Virus record (IMG/VR): IMGVR_UViG_3300015177_000008
Location: 32,001-96,000 of that record
DNA from: a virus
Lineage: Duplodnaviria > Heunggongvirae > Uroviricota > Caudoviricetes
DNA: 64,000 nt
Reading direction: 5' to 3' (one strand)
In this document: positions 41,898 to 48,892 of the stretch, piece by piece
How the letters are laid out: every line of letters starts with the position of its first letter
Position numbering within the stretch: the first letter of the stretch is position 1
Made by a program: the position numbers and the translations under genes
Notes under the pieces: generated by a model
Seen by the model: only the letters and a program-made list of their open reading frames with translations
Told to the model about the DNA's origin: nothing
Databases searched by the model: none

Positions 41898-41978
41898 TTA
41901 TTCACATATCCACAGGATAGATCCTAATAAAGAGATCCATAGATAGATCCTTGTATAGATCAAATAAGATCCCCGATC
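41898..41978. promoter_or_regulatory. Origin-like region: two DnaA-box-like 9-mers plus six GATC sites in 59 bp
   Basis: TTATTCACA (41898-41906) and ATATCCACA (41906-41914); GATC at 41920, 41934, 41946, 41958, 41968, 41975 within AGATCC-type heptamers. Confidence 0.6.
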
Positions 41979-42018
41979 GCTGTAAGCCGCGCCACGACTG
42001 GTCTGAAGCCATGTTCAT

Positions 42019-42120
42019 GTATGCTGTCAGCGGTAATTGATAGTCTGTCAGCGGTTCACCGTATGCTGCCAACTGTTTTTGGTATTCTGTCAGCGGCAAA
42101 TCAAGTATGCTGTCAGCGGT
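42019..42120 (+). repeat. Upstream iteron array (5 copies of GTATGCTGTCAGCGGT, 22-bp spacing)
   Basis: Copies at 42019, 42041, 42061, 42083, 42105 immediately upstream of repA. Confidence 0.75.
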
Positions 42121-42140
42121 TGAATGACAAAGGTGTCCAC

Positions 42141-43235
42141 ATGTCCACAAAAAATAAAAAAGGTAAAAATAACAAAGAAGTAGAAGATAATCTCGACAAC
42201 TTTGAAGAAGGTTCCCTTGAATTGTACACAGGGGAACTTGTCCCTAATAGCAACAATACAGTCCAACCAATTGCGTTGATGCGGCTGGGATTGTTCGTGC
42301 CCACGCTCAAGGGGACAAAATACAGCAAGCGTAACAAGCCAAATGAGATCGATGCTTCAAAGGAGCTTGTTCAGCTCGAAGTAGCCCGTTCTGAAGGCTA
42401 TTCCGATATCAAGATAACCGGTCCTCGTCTCGACATGGATCATGATTTCAAAACGTGGGTGGGCGTTGTGCGTTCGCTGGCAGAATACGGCGAACCTAAC
42501 GGTCGTGTCGAGTTAAGCATCACGAAATTTGCGAAGTTTTGTGGCTATCCATCGTCACAGATCCGCAAAACACTCCGCGACCGGCTTACAAACAGTCTTT
42601 TGAAGATCATGCGTACAACTCTGTCTTTCCAGAGAACATATGAAGAAAAGAACGTCGACGGCTCTAACAAGATCTCGCTTCTGATGGTGCACCTCATCAA
42701 TAGCGTGGACTACAACGAGCAGAAAGATACGGTGGTGTTCTATGCAGAACCGAAGCTGGCCGAACTATATCGCTTTGACCATAAGGTTCTTTTGCAGTTA
42801 AAGGTTATCAATAAGCTACCACGCAAAGAAACAGCACAGGCTCTGTACACCTTCATCGAAAGTCTTCCAACCAAGCCTGCGCCGGTGTCGCTTGCTCGAT
42901 TGCGTGCGCGACTCAATTTGAGTAGCAGGAATGTCAGCTCGCAGAATCAGACTATACGCAACGGCTTAAAAGCTCTCCAAGATTTGGGCTATCTCGAATA
43001 CAGCGAGATTAAGCGAGGGCGGTCGATCTATATCCAGATTCACAGCCGTAATCCAAAACTTAAAGTCGCACCGCCAAAACCTGAAGACATCGAACCCAAA
43101 AAAACAGATGAGAAAGCCGGGGAAATTGATGCTAAACAGAACATTATCAACAAGATAACTGAGCTTTCGCAGAATTTGACGCCTGAAAATATCAAGATGA
43201 TTGAGATCCTTTCCAATAGTCTCAAACTGCTTTGA
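42141..43235 (+). CDS. repA: Iteron-type plasmid replication initiator (RepA-like), 364 aa
   Basis: ORF flanked on both sides by arrays of the same iteron; start at ATG 42141 with SD aaaggtg; basic Lys-rich N- and C-termini. Confidence 0.8.
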   Translation: MSTKNKKGKNNKEVEDNLDNFEEGSLELYTGELVPNSNNTVQPIALMRLGLFVPTLKGTKYSKRNKPNEIDASKELVQLEVARSEGYSDIKITGPRLDMDHDFKTWVGVVRSLAEYGEPNGRVELSITKFAKFCGYPSSQIRKTLRDRLTNSLLKIMRTTLSFQRTYEEKNVDGSNKISLLMVHLINSVDYNEQKDTVVFYAEPKLAELYRFDHKVLLQLKVINKLPRKETAQALYTFIESLPTKPAPVSLARLRARLNLSSRNVSSQNQTIRNGLKALQDLGYLEYSEIKRGRSIYIQIHSRNPKLKVAPPKPEDIEPKKTDEKAGEIDAKQNIINKITELSQNLTPENIKMIEILSNSLKLL

Positions 43236-43766
43236 TATGCTGTCAGCGGTGAAATGTATGCTATCAGCGGCTATTTTTCTGAAAAGTATGCTGTGAACGG
43301 TTAAAGATATGCTACCAGCGGTATAGTGAGATGAACGTATGCTGTGAGCGGTAAATCATCTATCACCACTCAATGCTCTGTCATACCTCCCCAGTGGTTA
43401 CTAACCTCGAAGAGTGCATTCCATATAGGTTTGCGCTCACTAACATTCTATTGCTATTGCGCTGATTGCTTGTAGTGAAAGGCATTTATTGCCTGCTGCT
43501 CCCTGATAGAACGTATGCTGTCAGCGGTGTTTTATTGAGGAATTTTTGTTTGGATATGCTATCAGCGGTAATTAATGGTATATGTCAGACCTTCGTATGC
43601 TGCCAGCGGTAATTTTGTTCTGGTTATACCCATACCGGTACACATTATTCATGCAATGTCTTAAGTATGCTGTCAGCGGTAAAAAATCGAGTAAAGTATG
43701 CTGTGAGCGGTGAGATAGACTCTCGATATGCTATCAGCGGTAGTTGATTGTGTATGCTGTCAGCGG
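43234..43766 (+). repeat. Downstream iteron array (about 12 copies in two groups), incA-like
   Basis: Copies at 43234, 43256, 43286, 43306, 43336, 43512, 43553, 43594, 43664, 43694, 43724, 43749; first overlaps the repA stop. Confidence 0.8.
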
Positions 43767-43814
43767 TGACGACTATGAAATATGACTGCGGAACGTGCCG
43801 CAGTCAGTTTGCAT

Positions 43815-44027
43815 TTAGTGTATTTTCTTTAACAGACCCCAAAGTGTTCCGGCTTTTGTAGTCAGTTTTCCTGTTTCTGGATCGTACATACGCCATTCAC
43901 GCCGCTGGTGGACGATATACCCATCTTCACGTTCCAGACGCTCAAGAATGCCAGGTTGCTTGAAACCCTTAGCACGCCAGTAGCCGCTTGTTTTCTCGAT
44001 TTCCAGACCTGCCAGTGTTAATGCCAT
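43815..44027 (-). CDS. Hypothetical protein (70 aa)
   Basis: ATG overlaps stop of the upstream gene (TAATG). Confidence 0.45.
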   Translation of the reverse strand: MALTLAGLEIEKTSGYWRAKGFKQPGILERLEREDGYIVHQRREWRMYDPETGKLTTKAGTLWGLLKKIH

Positions 44028-46552: not shown

Positions 46553-48892
46553 TTACTCTTCTACTGACTCGGTGGGATTGTCTTTTGATCTCCGGTCGTC
46601 GATTGCCTGTAAAGCCGCAATGATTTCAGCTAGTGGCTTCTCCCGATACATCTCGACGATCTGTGATTTGGTGTATTTCTTGTCACCAATTTCTACTCGA
46701 CCGCTGGCGTTCTTTGGCAGGTATCCTTCTTCCAGCATGTACTCGACGAGCGACTCGATAACGTCGAGGCCACGAGTAGGATCGAAGTAGAATTTCCAGG
46801 TGCATTTGCCATACGGTGGTGCAACTTTGTTTTTGATGCACTCTGCGCCTACGTCCTGACCGATCTTCTCTTTCCCATCCTTCATCACCGATGCACCGAG
46901 ACGGATGCGCACAGAAGCGTAAAACTTCGGTGAATCGCCGCCTGGAGACGTAGTAGGGTCGCCAAACATTACACCGATTTTTGTGCGAACCTGATTCAAG
47001 AAGATGATGCAGGCGTTGTATTTGCGTGCCCACAAAGCCAGAGTGGGGAAGTTCGCACTCGTCGCACGAGCCAGCGCCGTATTGTCGTTCATGTTTAGCT
47101 GATCTTTGTCTTTGGCAGTGCCTTCAGCCATCTTTTCGAACTTCTCGGCTTTGGAGTTCGGAACCATAGACGCAAGTGAGTCAGCCACGATACAGATAGG
47201 TGCTGATTCAGGAATAAGCTCTTCATCACGTACCAATTTAAGAATTGTGCCGATCAACTCTACAGAGTCTTCGAAGGTATCAGGCTGCTTGTATACCCAC
47301 TGACCGTCATCCTCATCTGCATTCAAACCATTGGCTACAGCCAGGCCAACGTCAAAACTGTTTTCATGATCGAGGAATACCGCCAGACCATCTTGTTTTT
47401 GAGCGGAGATCATCGCTGCTGTTGCAAGGAATGTGTTGTGGCTGATAATCCCGTTAGACCAGAAAGAGTGTGTTTCCGGCATCGCTACGTCGAACGTTGG
47501 TGCTTCACCTTCCTCAATAGCCACGACTTCGTCGTAGAACAAGTTAGAGCCAATTACCGCTGCCAGTTGTGCAAACAGATGCTCGTTAAAACGATTCTTT
47601 CTGCCAATGAAGGAGACATAGATTTCTCGCAGTTTGTCTATTCCGACACGATCGCCGCGGCCAATAACGTGGTCTACCAGAGCGTAGTCTTCACGGGTGG
47701 TCTTGGTGAGCGACTCGTAGAGTGATTTCACTAAGCCGCTGATGTGCGGAACATAGCCTGAGTAAGTGCGGTCAAAACCAATGTCCCGTTTGGTTGCCAC
47801 TGATAAACGTGCCGGAGATTCGAAACCAATCGTTGACAGAAAAAGGTCGTAATTAGAGCCACTGAATGACAGCCGGTAATATGTATTTTCATAACCCGCG
47901 ACGTGTTTTTCAGAGATAGTTGACGTAATCCCCAGATTCAGGAGCATGAGGCGAATTTGCTGTAGCAGCAGCCCACTCGCGCTCACAACCTCAATGCAGC
48001 GACCATCATTGACGTGGCATTCCAGCTCAAAGTAGCCGCGAAGGAATGCAATTTGAGCCTCGCTATTGGCGCGACGCACACTCAACGGAACCTGCTTGCC
48101 AGCAGCTTTCTCATACTCCAGACCATATTCTTTAAAAAGCAGCGAACGCACCTCTTTGCTAAACAGCACATGGTCTTCCGAGCCGTTATGTTTTCTCGTA
48201 ACTGGCATCTTGTCTGATACCAGCGAAATGAGGCGGTAGTACTCATCCTTGATGAAAGGATCTGTGTTAGAAAAATTCACTGAATTTTCAGAGGCCACGT
48301 ATCCGTCAGCAATTAAATAGCCCATCAGTTTTGCGATATTGGCATCCAGGTGCTGATCGCCGAATTGATGTGTGCCAACCATTGAAGGAATCGTGTCGCC
48401 TACACTGATTTTTTCAGCATGTCGCCAGACGACATTACCTAAGTCGTCAACCACACGGATTGGGTGACGGAACGTAGCCTCGATATAACCGCCTGATGCC
48501 AGCTTAATACGCTTGAATTTGCGACGGTTGTTCCATGTCAGGTGTGAGGTCTTCTCTATCACGCCATTTTCATTGATGAGTCCAACGTTATGCTCTACAT
48601 CGCGAGTAGTGCATGTCGCTTTGTACCCTTCAATCTCAAACAACTCTTTCACTGTTACCATTCCACGCTCCGTCAGCAGCATGGTGTCTGCGGTAACACA
48701 TTTCCCCGCACTTGGAGGACCGAATACTTCGACGATACGACCACATGGGAAGCCGCCATCGTAACGACCAGAAATAGCTTTGTTTAACGGTGGAAAGCCT
48801 GTATCAATCCAATGAGTTACTTTCTGAATTTCGTCGTTGCTACCGATTTTCTTTTTCAGAGCAAGTGCCAGTGCGGATTTTCCTTTTGCCAT
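46553..48892 (-). CDS. recA: RecA-family recombinase interrupted by an intein (779-aa precursor, about 357-aa mature protein)
   Basis: N-extein ends GPPSAGK; C-extein has IFLNQVRTKIGVMFGDPTTSPGG and KFYASVRIRLG, closely RecA-like; SD aggagcc. Confidence 0.9.
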   Translation of the reverse strand: MAKGKSALALALKKKIGSNDEIQKVTHWIDTGFPPLNKAISGRYDGGFPCGRIVEVFGPPSAGKCVTADTMLLTERGMVTVKELFEIEGYKATCTTRDVEHNVGLINENGVIEKTSHLTWNNRRKFKRIKLASGGYIEATFRHPIRVVDDLGNVVWRHAEKISVGDTIPSMVGTHQFGDQHLDANIAKLMGYLIADGYVASENSVNFSNTDPFIKDEYYRLISLVSDKMPVTRKHNGSEDHVLFSKEVRSLLFKEYGLEYEKAAGKQVPLSVRRANSEAQIAFLRGYFELECHVNDGRCIEVVSASGLLLQQIRLMLLNLGITSTISEKHVAGYENTYYRLSFSGSNYDLFLSTIGFESPARLSVATKRDIGFDRTYSGYVPHISGLVKSLYESLTKTTREDYALVDHVIGRGDRVGIDKLREIYVSFIGRKNRFNEHLFAQLAAVIGSNLFYDEVVAIEEGEAPTFDVAMPETHSFWSNGIISHNTFLATAAMISAQKQDGLAVFLDHENSFDVGLAVANGLNADEDDGQWVYKQPDTFEDSVELIGTILKLVRDEELIPESAPICIVADSLASMVPNSKAEKFEKMAEGTAKDKDQLNMNDNTALARATSANFPTLALWARKYNACIIFLNQVRTKIGVMFGDPTTSPGGDSPKFYASVRIRLGASVMKDGKEKIGQDVGAECIKNKVAPPYGKCTWKFYFDPTRGLDVIESLVEYMLEEGYLPKNASGRVEIGDKKYTKSQIVEMYREKPLAEIIAALQAIDDRRSKDNPTESVEE
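47435..48700 (-). mobile_element. Intein (422 aa) with LAGLIDADG-type homing endonuclease domain, inserted in the RecA P-loop
   Basis: Starts with Cys (CVTADTMLL), ends IISHN followed by Thr+1; LAGLIDADG-like blocks LMGYLIADGYV and LRGYFELECHVNDG. Confidence 0.85.

What the first reader, a model, noticed from the sequence alone, without database searches (positions are those of the whole stretch)
41898..43766. P1-type iteron replicon: DnaA boxes and GATC cluster, 5 iterons, repA, then about 12 more iterons
A 16-bp unit ((G/A)TATGCTGTCAGCGGT) occurs five times at 22-bp spacing upstream of a 364-aa ORF and about twelve times downstream of it. The upstream array is preceded by two DnaA-box-like 9-mers and six GATC sites in 59 bp. 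From established plasmid biology this is the layout of the P1 plasmid replicon (oriR with Dam sites and incC iterons, repA, incA copy-control iterons) and of F RepFIA-type replicons. It indicates the element replicates as a low-copy plasmid.
Basis: partly seen in the sequence, partly recalled or inferred. Interest (0 to 1): 0.6.

Follow-up and report, generated by a model that had tools for sequence, protein, structure and literature searches.

The report
P1/RepFIB-type plasmid replicon of phage-plasmid
This is the plasmid-maintenance replication module (origin, initiator gene repA and copy-control repeats) of a common ~110-kb E. coli phage-plasmid; it is a clear relative of the textbook phage P1 / RepFIB replicon and already catalogued as a replicon type, so it is real but ordinary.

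Summary
Window 41898-43767 holds two tandem DnaA boxes and six GATC sites in 59 bp, the only such cluster in 64 kb. Five direct iterons follow (spacing 21/21/21/23), then a 364-aa repA and 12 more iterons, all direct, in two clusters.

RepA is 43.5-46% identical to P1/P7 RepA (E 2e-64 to 2e-72), passes Pfam Rep3_N, and models as a winged-helix initiator (best fold matches RctB and RepE). The 114-bp DnaA-box/GATC/GC-spacer segment aligns with P1 oriR at 75% DNA identity, with GATC spacing nearly preserved.

The host element is an SSU5-supergroup phage-plasmid, not P1. The region is 98.6% identical to p09EL50, whose RepA is reported identical to that of pECOH89. I therefore infer, without running the typing tool, that it is PlasmidFinder type IncFIB(H89-PhagePlasmid). 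It occurs in 119 of 5426 complete E. coli genomes, always on plasmids.

Differences from P1:
- a different iteron sequence, so a different incompatibility specificity is predicted;
- all downstream iterons direct (P1 has 3 direct and 6 inverted);
- a C-terminal RepA tail of about 55 aa;
- no adjacent parAB.

Function (RepA/DnaA initiation, Dam/SeqA control, handcuffing by the downstream array) is inferred by homology and was not tested. Interest is low.

The parts
41898..41914 (+). Two tandem DnaA boxes (TTATTCACA, ATATCCACA) at the outer edge of the origin
   Evidence: 0 and 1 mismatch to TTWTNCACA. They are positionally homologous to the annotated DnaA binding site of P1, K02380 729-746. They are conserved in the Klebsiella, Cronobacter, SSU5 and p0111-type relatives.
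41915..41978 (.). A+T-rich segment with six GATC sites: five in AGATC(C/A) heptamer-like repeats plus CGATCG. Presumed Dam/SeqA-controlled unwinding region.
   Evidence: six GATC in 59 bp, unique in the window, 67% A+T. The spacing 14,12,12,10,7 compares with SSU5 13,12,12,10,7, Klebsiella 14,12,12,10,7 and P1 (23),11,10,7. P1 annotates four of its five GATC sites as Dam sites.
41979..42018 (.). G+C-rich spacer (…GCCGCGCCACG.CTGG…) between the GATC cluster and the iterons
   Evidence: GCCGCGCCACG is identical in P1, the p0111-type, Klebsiella and Cronobacter relatives. A+T is 42% here.
42019..42120 (+). Five direct origin iterons (incC-like), spacing 21/21/21/23 bp. Also the presumed repA operator.
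   Evidence: P1 incC has five iterons at 21/21/21/22. Only 20 nt separate the last iteron from the repA ATG, so the repA promoter must overlap the array (sequence).
42128..42147 (+). Two tandem TGTCCACA motifs (weak DnaA-box-like, 2 mismatches each) overlapping the repA ribosome-binding site and start codon. Tentative.
   Evidence: sequence. The Klebsiella relative has GTATCCACA (1 mismatch) at the same place. P1 has CTATCCACA between incC and repA. Conservation could equally reflect the ribosome-binding site or coding sequence.
42141..43235 (+). repA, a 364-aa iteron-binding initiator of the P1 RepA / RepFIB family. It has a winged-helix core and a C-terminal tail of about 55 aa.
   Evidence: Pfam PF01051; PHROG 775 with E 5e-133; 43.5-46% identity to P1 RepA. 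The AlphaFold model has mean pLDDT 71, with Foldseek hits to RctB domains 2-3 at E 5e-8 and RepE at 3.5e-5. The ribosome-binding site AAGGTG lies 5 nt before ATG 42141.
43235..43352 (+). Downstream iteron cluster 1: five direct iterons (spacing 21, 30, 21, 30). The first overlaps the repA stop codon.
   Evidence: This is the same position as the start of P1 incA, at the repA stop codon (K02380 1866).
43353..43512 (.). 160-bp iteron-free spacer between the two downstream clusters
   Evidence: It is not alignable with the Cronobacter relative (alignment stops at 43270). The relatives also have an iteron-free gap, but of different length (start-to-start 87 in Klebsiella and 192 in Cronobacter, against 176 here). 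There is no significant relic SSU5- or P1-type iteron.
43513..43767 (+). Downstream iteron cluster 2: seven direct iterons (spacing 41, 41, 70, 31, 30, 26). With cluster 1 it forms the presumed incA-like copy-control and incompatibility locus.
   Evidence: Phage PhiR41_1 lacks 87 bp between the identical iterons at 43666 and 43753, leaving 9 downstream iterons.
43783..43806 (.). G+C-rich hairpin (terminator-like on both strands) that bounds the replicon next to the convergent backbone gene at 43815-44027
   Evidence: Backbone homology to SSU5 resumes at 43817.

Best explanation
Window 41898-43767 is the plasmid-prophage replicon of an SSU5-supergroup phage-plasmid (pECOH89/p09EL50 lineage). 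It is built like the P1 oriR-repA-incA and RepFIB replicons.

Inferred mechanism, taken from P1 and RepFIB:
1. Monomeric RepA binds the five in-phase origin iterons.
2. Host DnaA binds the flanking boxes. Together they open the adjacent A+T-rich GATC segment and load DnaB.
3. The GATC sites make initiation depend on Dam methylation, and hemimethylated DNA is sequestered by SeqA after firing.
4. RepA bound to the origin iterons also occludes its own promoter, giving autorepression.
5. The 12 downstream iterons bind RepA and pair with origin iterons in cis or in trans (handcuffing, plus some titration). This holds copy number low and sets incompatibility.

Because the iteron sequence differs from those of P1 and SSU5, the replicon should form its own incompatibility group.

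Shown here: the sequence anatomy, RepA homology and fold, DNA-level homology of the origin's left half, conservation across relatives, and exclusive plasmid location. Inferred: every biochemical step.
For: Repeat statistics.

RepA homology: 43.5-46% identity to P1/P7 RepA with E 2e-64 to 2e-72. Pfam Rep3_N is above its cut-off.

Fold: the best matches are the iteron initiators RctB and RepE.

Match to the annotated P1 record: DnaA site, Dam sites, five incC repeats, repA, and incA starting at the repA stop codon.

Origin homology: the 114-bp DnaA/GATC/spacer segment is 75% identical to P1, 80% to a p0111-type P1-like plasmid, 70% to SSU5 and 79% to same-specificity relatives. The iteron block is only 52-56% identical to P1 and SSU5 but 82-86% identical to the same-specificity relatives.

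Conservation across relatives: five upstream iterons at 21/21/21/23 and the same iteron consensus are kept in Klebsiella and Cronobacter relatives whose RepA is 86-87% identical. The downstream number varies between 9 and 12.

Plasmid location: 119 of 5426 complete E. coli genomes carry it, with 0 chromosomal places. In PLSDB, 136 of 143 matching records are non-mobilizable plasmids.

Control role of the downstream array in the related FIB replicon: the downstream iteron block alone displaces the replicon, while the upstream block alone does not (PMC11983097).

Iteron spacings are mostly whole helical turns: 21, 30-31 and 41 bp.
Against: - No experiment on this replicon was found, and no paper describing its iterons turned up in the library.
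- The simple sigma-70 scan found no promoter upstream of repA, so autoregulation is argued from geometry only.
- All 12 downstream iterons are direct, whereas P1 incA has 3 direct and 6 inverted. The looping geometry may therefore differ.
- The window covers only 64 kb of a roughly 113-kb element, so a second replicon elsewhere cannot be excluded.
- The element's own Dam-like gene is disrupted in this copy, so any Dam dependence would have to rest on host Dam.
Confidence: 0.9

Rival explanations
1. The replicon is a functional origin, but the downstream repeats act mainly as a RepA titration sink or as a transcriptional barrier rather than by handcuffing. Copy control would then differ mechanistically from P1.
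For: All 12 repeats are direct and split into two clusters by a non-conserved 160-bp spacer. Their number varies between 9 and 12 among otherwise near-identical elements, which a simple dosage sink would tolerate.
Against: In P1 and in FIA/FIB replicons, the downstream iterons inhibit by pairing with origin iterons (PMC11983097; the Das & Chattoraj 2004 reference is seen only as a citation). With autoregulated RepA, pure titration is not expected to control copy number (established plasmid biology, from memory).
Confidence: 0.12
2. The replicon is a vestigial or silent module, like the F-plasmid FIB replicon, and the element is maintained by another replicon outside the window or by its phage-type replication genes (dnaE, helicase and others).
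For: F's FIB replicon is naturally inactive through a poor translation start (PMC11983097). The backbone encodes its own DNA polymerase III alpha subunit, ligase and nucleotide-metabolism genes. Only 64 kb of the element is in view.
Against: repA is intact, with ATG and a good ribosome-binding site (AAGGTG). The region is 97-100% conserved across 115 or more plasmids. The iteron arrays are maintained in relatives about 77% identical at the DNA level (RepA 86-87% identical). This is the replicon by which typing tools recognise these plasmids (PMC12838234).
Confidence: 0.05
3. The repeats are a partition centromere or the binding sites of another DNA-binding protein, not RepA sites. Alternatively, the region is the lytic-cycle origin.
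For: Direct binding was not tested. Arrays of direct repeats also occur in centromeres such as F sopC (from memory).
Against: The same repeat forms the five-unit, helically phased array directly upstream of repA, exactly as in P1 incC. The iteron consensus is kept where RepA is 86-87% identical and differs where RepA is 44-47% identical. No ParA/ParB homolog lies in the window. P1's lytic origin is a separate repL system (PMC6906374).
Confidence: 0.03

Closest known systems
Phage P1 / P7 plasmid replicon (oriR with DnaA boxes, Dam heptamers and incC iterons; repA; incA)
   Same: RepA is homologous: 43.5-46% identity, E 2e-64 to 2e-72. The order of parts is identical. The left 114 bp of the origin is 75% identical at DNA level, with near-identical GATC spacing. 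There are five origin iterons at 21-bp phasing. The second array starts at the repA stop codon.
   Different: - The iteron sequence is unrelated, and no P1-type iteron is present.
- There are 12 downstream iterons, all direct, in two clusters, against 9 in P1 (3 direct and 6 inverted).
- There are six GATC sites against five.
- The last iteron is 20 nt from the ATG, against 57 nt in P1.
- RepA carries a C-terminal tail of about 55 aa that P1 RepA lacks.
- There is no parABS next to it.
- The host element is an SSU5-like phage backbone (siphovirus morphology is reported for its relative Cyrano, PMC9928086), not P1.
RepFIB replicons of IncF plasmids (P307, F, pO157)
   Same: rep is flanked by origin-associated upstream iterons and control-associated downstream iterons, with a DnaA site (PMC11983097). 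Database homologs at about 50% identity are named 'RepFIB replication protein A'. Many homologs of 325-345 aa also extend beyond the P1 RepA C-terminus.
   Different: It sits in a phage-plasmid rather than a conjugative F-like plasmid. I did not compare it directly with the P307, F or pO157 sequences. It co-resides with IncFIB(AP001918) plasmids in the same isolates (PMC12838234), so it is a separate specificity.
SSU5 / pHCM2 / pMT1 / pLF82 (Cyrano) replicon of the same phage-plasmid supergroup
   Same: It occupies the same genomic slot between the same backbone genes. The DnaA/GATC module is the same at 70% identity. Backbone homology at about 77% runs up to window 41979 and resumes at 43817. 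RepA shares the C-terminal tail.
   Different: RepA is only 47-48% identical, and the iteron is different (A(A/T)CCACTGTAGAGAG). SSU5 and pMT1 have mixed-orientation downstream iterons and a second, degenerate origin-like copy upstream of repA. The literature lists the two types under separate PlasmidFinder names: IncFIB(pLF82-PhagePlasmid) and IncFIB(H89-PhagePlasmid).
F RepFIA (ori2/incB iterons, repE, incC) and Vibrio cholerae chromosome-2 RctB
   Same: Both have the overall design of origin iterons, initiator gene and control iterons. The winged-helix initiator fold is shared: Foldseek RctB 5tbf at E 5e-8 and RepE 2z9o at 3.5e-5.
   Different: No sequence-level similarity to RepE or RctB is detectable. 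This is analogy and superfamily membership, not close family.

Membership tests
P1-type plasmid replicon (oriR-repA-incA) | Initiator homologous to P1 RepA | tested here: met
   tblastn gives 43.5% identity over aa 32-309 with E 2e-64. P1 RepA against the window gives 46% with E 2e-72. See also alignment A3.
P1-type plasmid replicon (oriR-repA-incA) | Tandem DnaA boxes at the outer end of the origin | tested here: met
   The boxes at 41898 and 41906 align with the annotated P1 DnaA site at 729-746.
P1-type plasmid replicon (oriR-repA-incA) | Cluster of GATC-containing heptamers in an A+T-rich stretch between the DnaA boxes and the iterons | tested here: met
   There are six GATC in 59 bp at 67% A+T. 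The spacing 14,12,12,10,7 compares with P1 (23),11,10,7.
P1-type plasmid replicon (oriR-repA-incA) | Five direct origin iterons, about two helical turns apart, immediately upstream of repA (incC) | tested here: met
   There are five iterons at 21/21/21/23, against P1's 21/21/21/22.
P1-type plasmid replicon (oriR-repA-incA) | repA promoter embedded in the origin iterons (autorepression) | tested here: inconclusive
   The consensus scan found no promoter upstream of repA. Only 20 nt lie between the last iteron and the ATG, so a promoter must overlap the array. TGgTATTCT at 42080-42088 is a possible extended -10, but it is not conserved in the Klebsiella relative.
P1-type plasmid replicon (oriR-repA-incA) | Second iteron array directly after repA (incA) | tested here: met
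   There are 12 iterons starting at the stop codon. Their orientation differs from P1: all direct, against 3 direct and 6 inverted.
P1-type plasmid replicon (oriR-repA-incA) | P1 iteron sequence (IncY specificity) | tested here: not met
   The P1 iteron pattern gives only 2 chance-level hits in the window, neither of them in the origin or downstream iteron arrays. The iteron block is 56% identical to P1 incC. It is therefore a P1-like design but not the P1 incompatibility group.
P1-type plasmid replicon (oriR-repA-incA) | parA-parB-parS operon adjacent to incA | tested here: not met
   P1 ParA and ParB have no tblastn hit in the 64-kb window. The downstream neighbours are small backbone genes on the opposite strand. 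The pECOH89 paper reports parA and parB elsewhere on that plasmid.
P1-type plasmid replicon (oriR-repA-incA) | Dependence on Dam methylation, DnaA and DnaK/DnaJ/GrpE; handcuffing by incA | not testable with these tools
   This requires genetics or biochemistry. The expectations come from established P1 biology (from memory) and from FIB data (PMC11983097).
Rep_3 winged-helix iteron initiators (Pfam PF01051; RepE, pi, pPS10 RepA) | Profile match above the curated threshold and a WH1-WH2 fold | tested here: met
   PF01051 scores 37.4 bits against 22.4. The AlphaFold model has pLDDT of about 80-92 over residues 71-210, about 55-77 over 211-270 and 84-90 over 271-300. The top Foldseek hits are RctB domains 2-3, RepE and the MSBI1.176 WH1 domain. 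No sequence-only PDB hit was found.
RepFIB replicon | rep flanked by upstream origin iterons and downstream control iterons; RepA of the FIB family | tested here: met
   For the layout. Homologs at about 50% identity are named RepFIB replication protein A by their sources. A direct comparison with P307 or F RepFIB was not made.
F RepFIA (RepE) | Initiator is a sequence homolog of RepE | tested here: not met
   Neither phmmer nor the profile search gave any RepE hit at E up to 1. The similarity is at fold level only.
SSU5/pHCM2/pLF82-type replicon | Same RepA and iteron specificity | tested here: not met
   RepA is 47-48% identical. The SSU5 iteron pattern is at chance level in the window. It does occupy the same genomic slot.
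IncFIB(H89-PhagePlasmid) replicon type (pECOH89/p09EL50) | Near-identity to the pECOH89/p09EL50 repA region | tested here: met
   The region is 98.6% identical over 1881 bp to NC_018651.1, the 109,274-bp plasmid of E. coli O104:H4 2009EL-2050, which I take to be p09EL50. The pECOH89 RepA is reported as 100% identical to that of p09EL50 and 48% to that of pLF82 (PMC3999498). HG530657 itself is not in the collections, so the link is transitive, and the typing tool was not run.

The most novel reading that the evidence does not exclude
The replicon may be modular. On this reading, a host-interface cassette (DnaA boxes, GATC heptamers and GC spacer) is kept at 70-80% identity across the P1, p0111-type, SSU5 and H89 lineages. 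An adjacent specificity cassette (origin iterons, repA and control iterons; window about 41980-43816) has been exchanged or has diverged rapidly inside an otherwise collinear SSU5 backbone.

That would let related phage-plasmids escape each other's incompatibility. The all-direct, two-cluster array of 9-12 iterons and the C-terminal RepA tail would then mark a control geometry different from P1.
Probability: 0.25. Interest if true: 0.35.

Novelty: already known. Interest (0 to 1): 0.15.

Why it matters
It confirms that this 64-kb window comes from a plasmid-prophage and locates its maintenance origin.

Practical uses:
- It gives exact coordinates for the origin, the iterons and the likely correct repA start. 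Public records annotate none of the origin features, and RefSeq calls a 404-aa ORF that begins inside an iteron.
- It predicts an incompatibility specificity distinct from P1 (IncY), from pLF82/SSU5-type phage-plasmids and from F-type FIB.
- It points to the downstream iteron block as the natural curing or incompatibility tool against these elements, some of which carry CTX-M-15.

It does not open a new biological question.

Tried and rejected
- Sequence search of RepA and of a 7-member family profile against PDB chains gave no initiator hits. The fold had to be tested by AlphaFold and Foldseek instead.
- NCBIfam gave no hit for RepA or for the upstream 214-aa protein.
- The sigma-70 promoter scan found nothing upstream of repA, so the promoter is left unresolved.
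- I tested whether the 160-bp spacer between the downstream clusters holds relic SSU5-type iterons. There is one 3-mismatch hit at 43385-43399, but the pattern is near chance window-wide (20 found against 11.8 expected), so I rejected the idea. No P1-type iterons were found in the origin or downstream arrays.
- I looked for parA/parB in the window using the P1 proteins and found none. The AAA_5 ATPase (57394-58629) and the CobT/VWA protein (58725-60833) are not partition genes.
- pECOH89 (HG530657) is not in the collections, and the P1 genome paper (PMC523184) is not held.
- The 2026 preprint on heteroresistance caused by RepA-linked copy-number mutations concerns an unrelated 49-kb phage-plasmid family.
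- The longer 404-aa repA reading frame was rejected. It starts within iteron 1 and reads through all five origin iterons. The 42141 start has a ribosome-binding site, matches the phage PhiR41_1 annotation, and matches the 364-366-aa cluster representatives.
Full report
**1. Checking the observation**

The 15-mer TATGCTGTCAGCGGT, allowing 3 mismatches, occurs 17 times in this interval, always on the + strand. The whole 64-kb window has 20 matches, against 1.56 expected, and 0 of 100 shuffles reached 20.

Five copies precede the ORF, starting at 42020, 42041, 42062, 42083 and 42106. Their spacing is 21, 21, 21 and 23 bp rather than a uniform 22.

Exactly twelve follow the ORF, in two clusters. 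The first is 43236, 43257, 43287, 43308 and 43338. The second is 43514, 43555, 43596, 43666, 43697, 43727 and 43753. A 160-bp iteron-free gap separates them.

Column information content shows a 16-nt core, (G/A)TATGCTGTCAGCGGT, with a weakly A-rich 3' flank. Spacings are mostly whole helical turns: 21, 30-31 and 41 bp.

The two DnaA-box-like 9-mers are TTATTCACA at 41898 (perfect to TTWTNCACA) and ATATCCACA at 41906 (one mismatch).

The six GATC sites (41920-41978) are the only such cluster in the window. The next-densest 59-bp span has two. They sit in a 67% A+T stretch, against 54.6% overall.

The ORF at 42141-43235 encodes 364 aa.

**2. What the protein is**

- Pfam places it in Rep3_N (PF01051, 37.4 bits against a cut-off of 22.4).
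- PHROGs places it in phrog_775 at E 5e-133. That family is labelled 'replication helicase', which looks like a misnomer.
- tblastn against phage genomes gives 43.5% identity to P1 and P7 RepA over residues 32-309 (E 2e-64). The reciprocal search with P1 RepA gives 46% identity and E 2e-72.
- Identity is 47-48% to the RepA of SSU5, pMT1 and Cyrano/pLF82, and 85-87% to Klebsiella and Cronobacter phage-plasmid RepAs.
- No solved structure is detectable by sequence, even with a family profile.
- An alignment-based AlphaFold model has mean pLDDT 71. By 10-residue blocks, pLDDT is about 80-92 over residues 71-210, about 55-77 over 211-270, and 84-90 over 271-300. It shows a two-winged-helix core. 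Its best PDB matches are iteron-binding initiators: V. cholerae RctB domains 2-3 (E 5e-8), F RepE (3.5e-5) and the MSBI1.176 WH1 domain.
- After the core come a disordered linker (309-328) and two helices (329-363). This tail is shared with SSU5/pMT1 RepA. Many RepFIB-type homologs of 325-345 aa also extend beyond the P1 C-terminus, but P1 RepA itself lacks the tail.

**3. Comparison with the P1 replicon**

The GenBank record of the P1 replicon (K02380) annotates the following, in order:
1. a DnaA binding site;
2. four Dam sites;
3. five incC repeats carrying the repA -35 and -10 signals;
4. repA;
5. incA, starting at the repA stop codon.

The window has the same parts in the same order.

The left 114 bp (DnaA boxes, GATC heptamers and a GC-rich spacer containing GCCGCGCCACG) aligns base by base with P1 oriR at 75% identity. 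It is 80% identical to a p0111-type P1-like plasmid, 70% to SSU5, and 79% to the Klebsiella and Cronobacter relatives. A distant BLAST also picks up this segment alone at about 83% in many P1-like plasmids of about 95 kb.

The GATC spacing is nearly fixed across lineages:
- window: 14, 12, 12, 10, 7
- SSU5: 13, 12, 12, 10, 7
- Klebsiella: 14, 12, 12, 10, 7
- P1: (23), 11, 10, 7

The iteron block behaves differently. It is only 52-56% identical to those of P1 and SSU5, but 82-86% identical to relatives with a similar RepA. P1-type and SSU5-type iteron patterns are at chance level in the window.

So the host-factor part of the origin is conserved across lineages. The iterons track RepA: the consensus is kept where RepA is 86-87% identical, and differs where RepA is 44-47% identical.

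**4. Context**

The flanking genes are those of the SSU5 supergroup of phage-plasmids:
- an SbcD-like metallophosphoesterase and a conserved 214-aa protein upstream;
- small conserved genes downstream;
- further out nrdAB, thyA, DHFR and dnaE in the window, plus a DNA ligase in the reference plasmid just beyond the window's end.

Homology to SSU5 itself, at about 77%, runs up to window 41979, through the GATC cluster, and resumes at 43817. The diverged cassette is therefore iterons-repA-iterons.

The region is 97-100% identical in 115 or more complete E. coli plasmids of about 100-115 kb. It occurs in 119 of 5426 complete genomes and never on a chromosome. In PLSDB, 136 of 143 matching records are non-mobilizable. 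Three phage records also carry it, PhiR41_1 and two records of CMS-2020a.

One record, NZ_JBTZOT010000003.1, is 100% identical over the replicon.

The region is 98.6% identical to NC_018651.1, the 109,274-bp plasmid of E. coli O104:H4 2009EL-2050, which I take to be p09EL50. The pECOH89 paper reports that its RepA is identical to that of p09EL50 and 48% identical to that of pLF82 (PMC3999498). That 48% matches my measurement.

I therefore infer that this replicon is what typing tools call IncFIB(H89-PhagePlasmid). I did not run the typing tool. The literature distinguishes that type from IncFIB(pLF82-PhagePlasmid), and reports it co-residing with IncFIB(AP001918) F-type plasmids in the same isolates (PMC12838234).

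**5. How it most likely works (inference from homologs)**

In P1 and RepFIB, RepA monomers bind the origin iterons. DnaA binds the flanking boxes, and the A+T-rich GATC region opens. Dam methylation is required, and SeqA sequesters hemimethylated DNA. RepA represses its own promoter inside the iterons. These points are established P1 biology, cited from memory.

The downstream iterons pair with the origin through RepA (handcuffing) to limit copy number and cause incompatibility. For FIB replicons, this last point is supported by the finding that the downstream block alone displaces the replicon while the upstream block does not (PMC11983097).

The anatomy here fits each step:
- The iterons are in helical phase.
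- The last iteron lies only 20 nt from the ATG, so the promoter must overlap the array.
- The ribosome-binding site AAGGTG lies 5 nt before the ATG.
- The downstream array begins at the stop codon.

A simple promoter scan did not find the repA promoter. TGgTATTCT at 42080-42088 is a possible extended -10, but it is not conserved in the Klebsiella relative.

Two TGTCCACA motifs overlapping the start codon may be weak right-hand DnaA boxes, which P1 has. Their conservation could equally reflect the ribosome-binding site or coding sequence.

The related SSU5-type phage-plasmid Cyrano was measured at 5.5 copies per cell (PMC9928086). 'Low copy' is therefore reasonable but was not shown for this element.

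**6. Differences from P1**

- The iteron sequence differs.
- All downstream iterons are direct, whereas P1 has 3 direct and 6 inverted and SSU5/pMT1 are mixed.
- The downstream number varies among relatives: 12 here, 11 in Cronobacter, 9 in Klebsiella, and 9 in phage PhiR41_1. PhiR41_1 has lost 87 bp by recombination between two identical iterons.
- RepA has a C-terminal tail.
- There is no adjacent par operon.

**7. Verdict**

However, this is a catalogued replicon of a well-known, widespread phage-plasmid family, built on a textbook design.

Its origin anatomy is not annotated in the public records I examined. I found no paper dissecting it. The coordinates given here may therefore be of practical use.

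Interest is low.

Noticed in passing
window 25504-26006 (- strand): The element's own Dam-like N6-adenine methyltransferase gene is broken in this copy. Compared with the intact 197-aa gene of NZ_CP027358, about 88 nt are missing. The loss removes the NPPY catalytic motif and creates a TAG after '...AFLNP'. A second frame change lies in the A-run near 25520-25530. Methylation of the origin GATC sites would therefore depend on host Dam. A sequencing error in the homopolymer run is not excluded.
   Followed up: partly
window 42021-43235; L001 6222-7436: RefSeq annotates repA as 404 aa starting at an ATG inside the first origin iteron, so the ORF reads through all five iterons. The 364-aa start at 42141 has a ribosome-binding site and agrees with the PhiR41_1 annotation and with the 364-366-aa cluster representatives. 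Separately, PHROGs and some phage records label this initiator 'replication helicase'.
   Followed up: yes
L004 (SSU5) 2270-2500 and 2650-2900; L007 (pMT1) likewise: SSU5 and Yersinia pestis pMT1 carry two tandem origin-like segments upstream of repA, each with DnaA boxes, a GATC-type heptamer run and iterons. In the repA-proximal copy most GATCs have decayed to GAACC or GACCC. The window has only one copy.
   Followed up: partly
L002 (phage PhiR41_1) 4060-4075, equivalent to window 43680-43752: The phage PhiR41_1 (host field: E. coli K-12 MG1655) lacks 87 bp between two identical iterons. It therefore has 9 rather than 12 downstream iterons, making it a natural copy-control variant.
   Followed up: partly
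window 46553-48892 (- strand): This 779-aa ORF is a RecA-family recombinase interrupted by an intein with a LAGLIDADG homing endonuclease. Intein_splicing spans residues 73-486, LAGLIDADG_3 spans 279-356, and RecA spans 484-703. The Cronobacter and Klebsiella relatives have an uninterrupted recombinase of about 360 aa.
   Followed up: partly
window 41979/41980 and 43816/43817: DNA homology to the SSU5 backbone stops just after the last origin GATC and resumes at the end of the first downstream backbone gene. This delimits the iteron-repA-iteron block as the only strongly diverged segment in this neighbourhood.
   Followed up: partly
window 57394-58629 and 58725-60833 (- strand): An AAA_5 (MoxR/dynein-like) ATPase lies next to a CobT/VWA-domain protein. 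This gene pair has no known role in the phage-plasmid backbone and is not a partition system.
   Followed up: no
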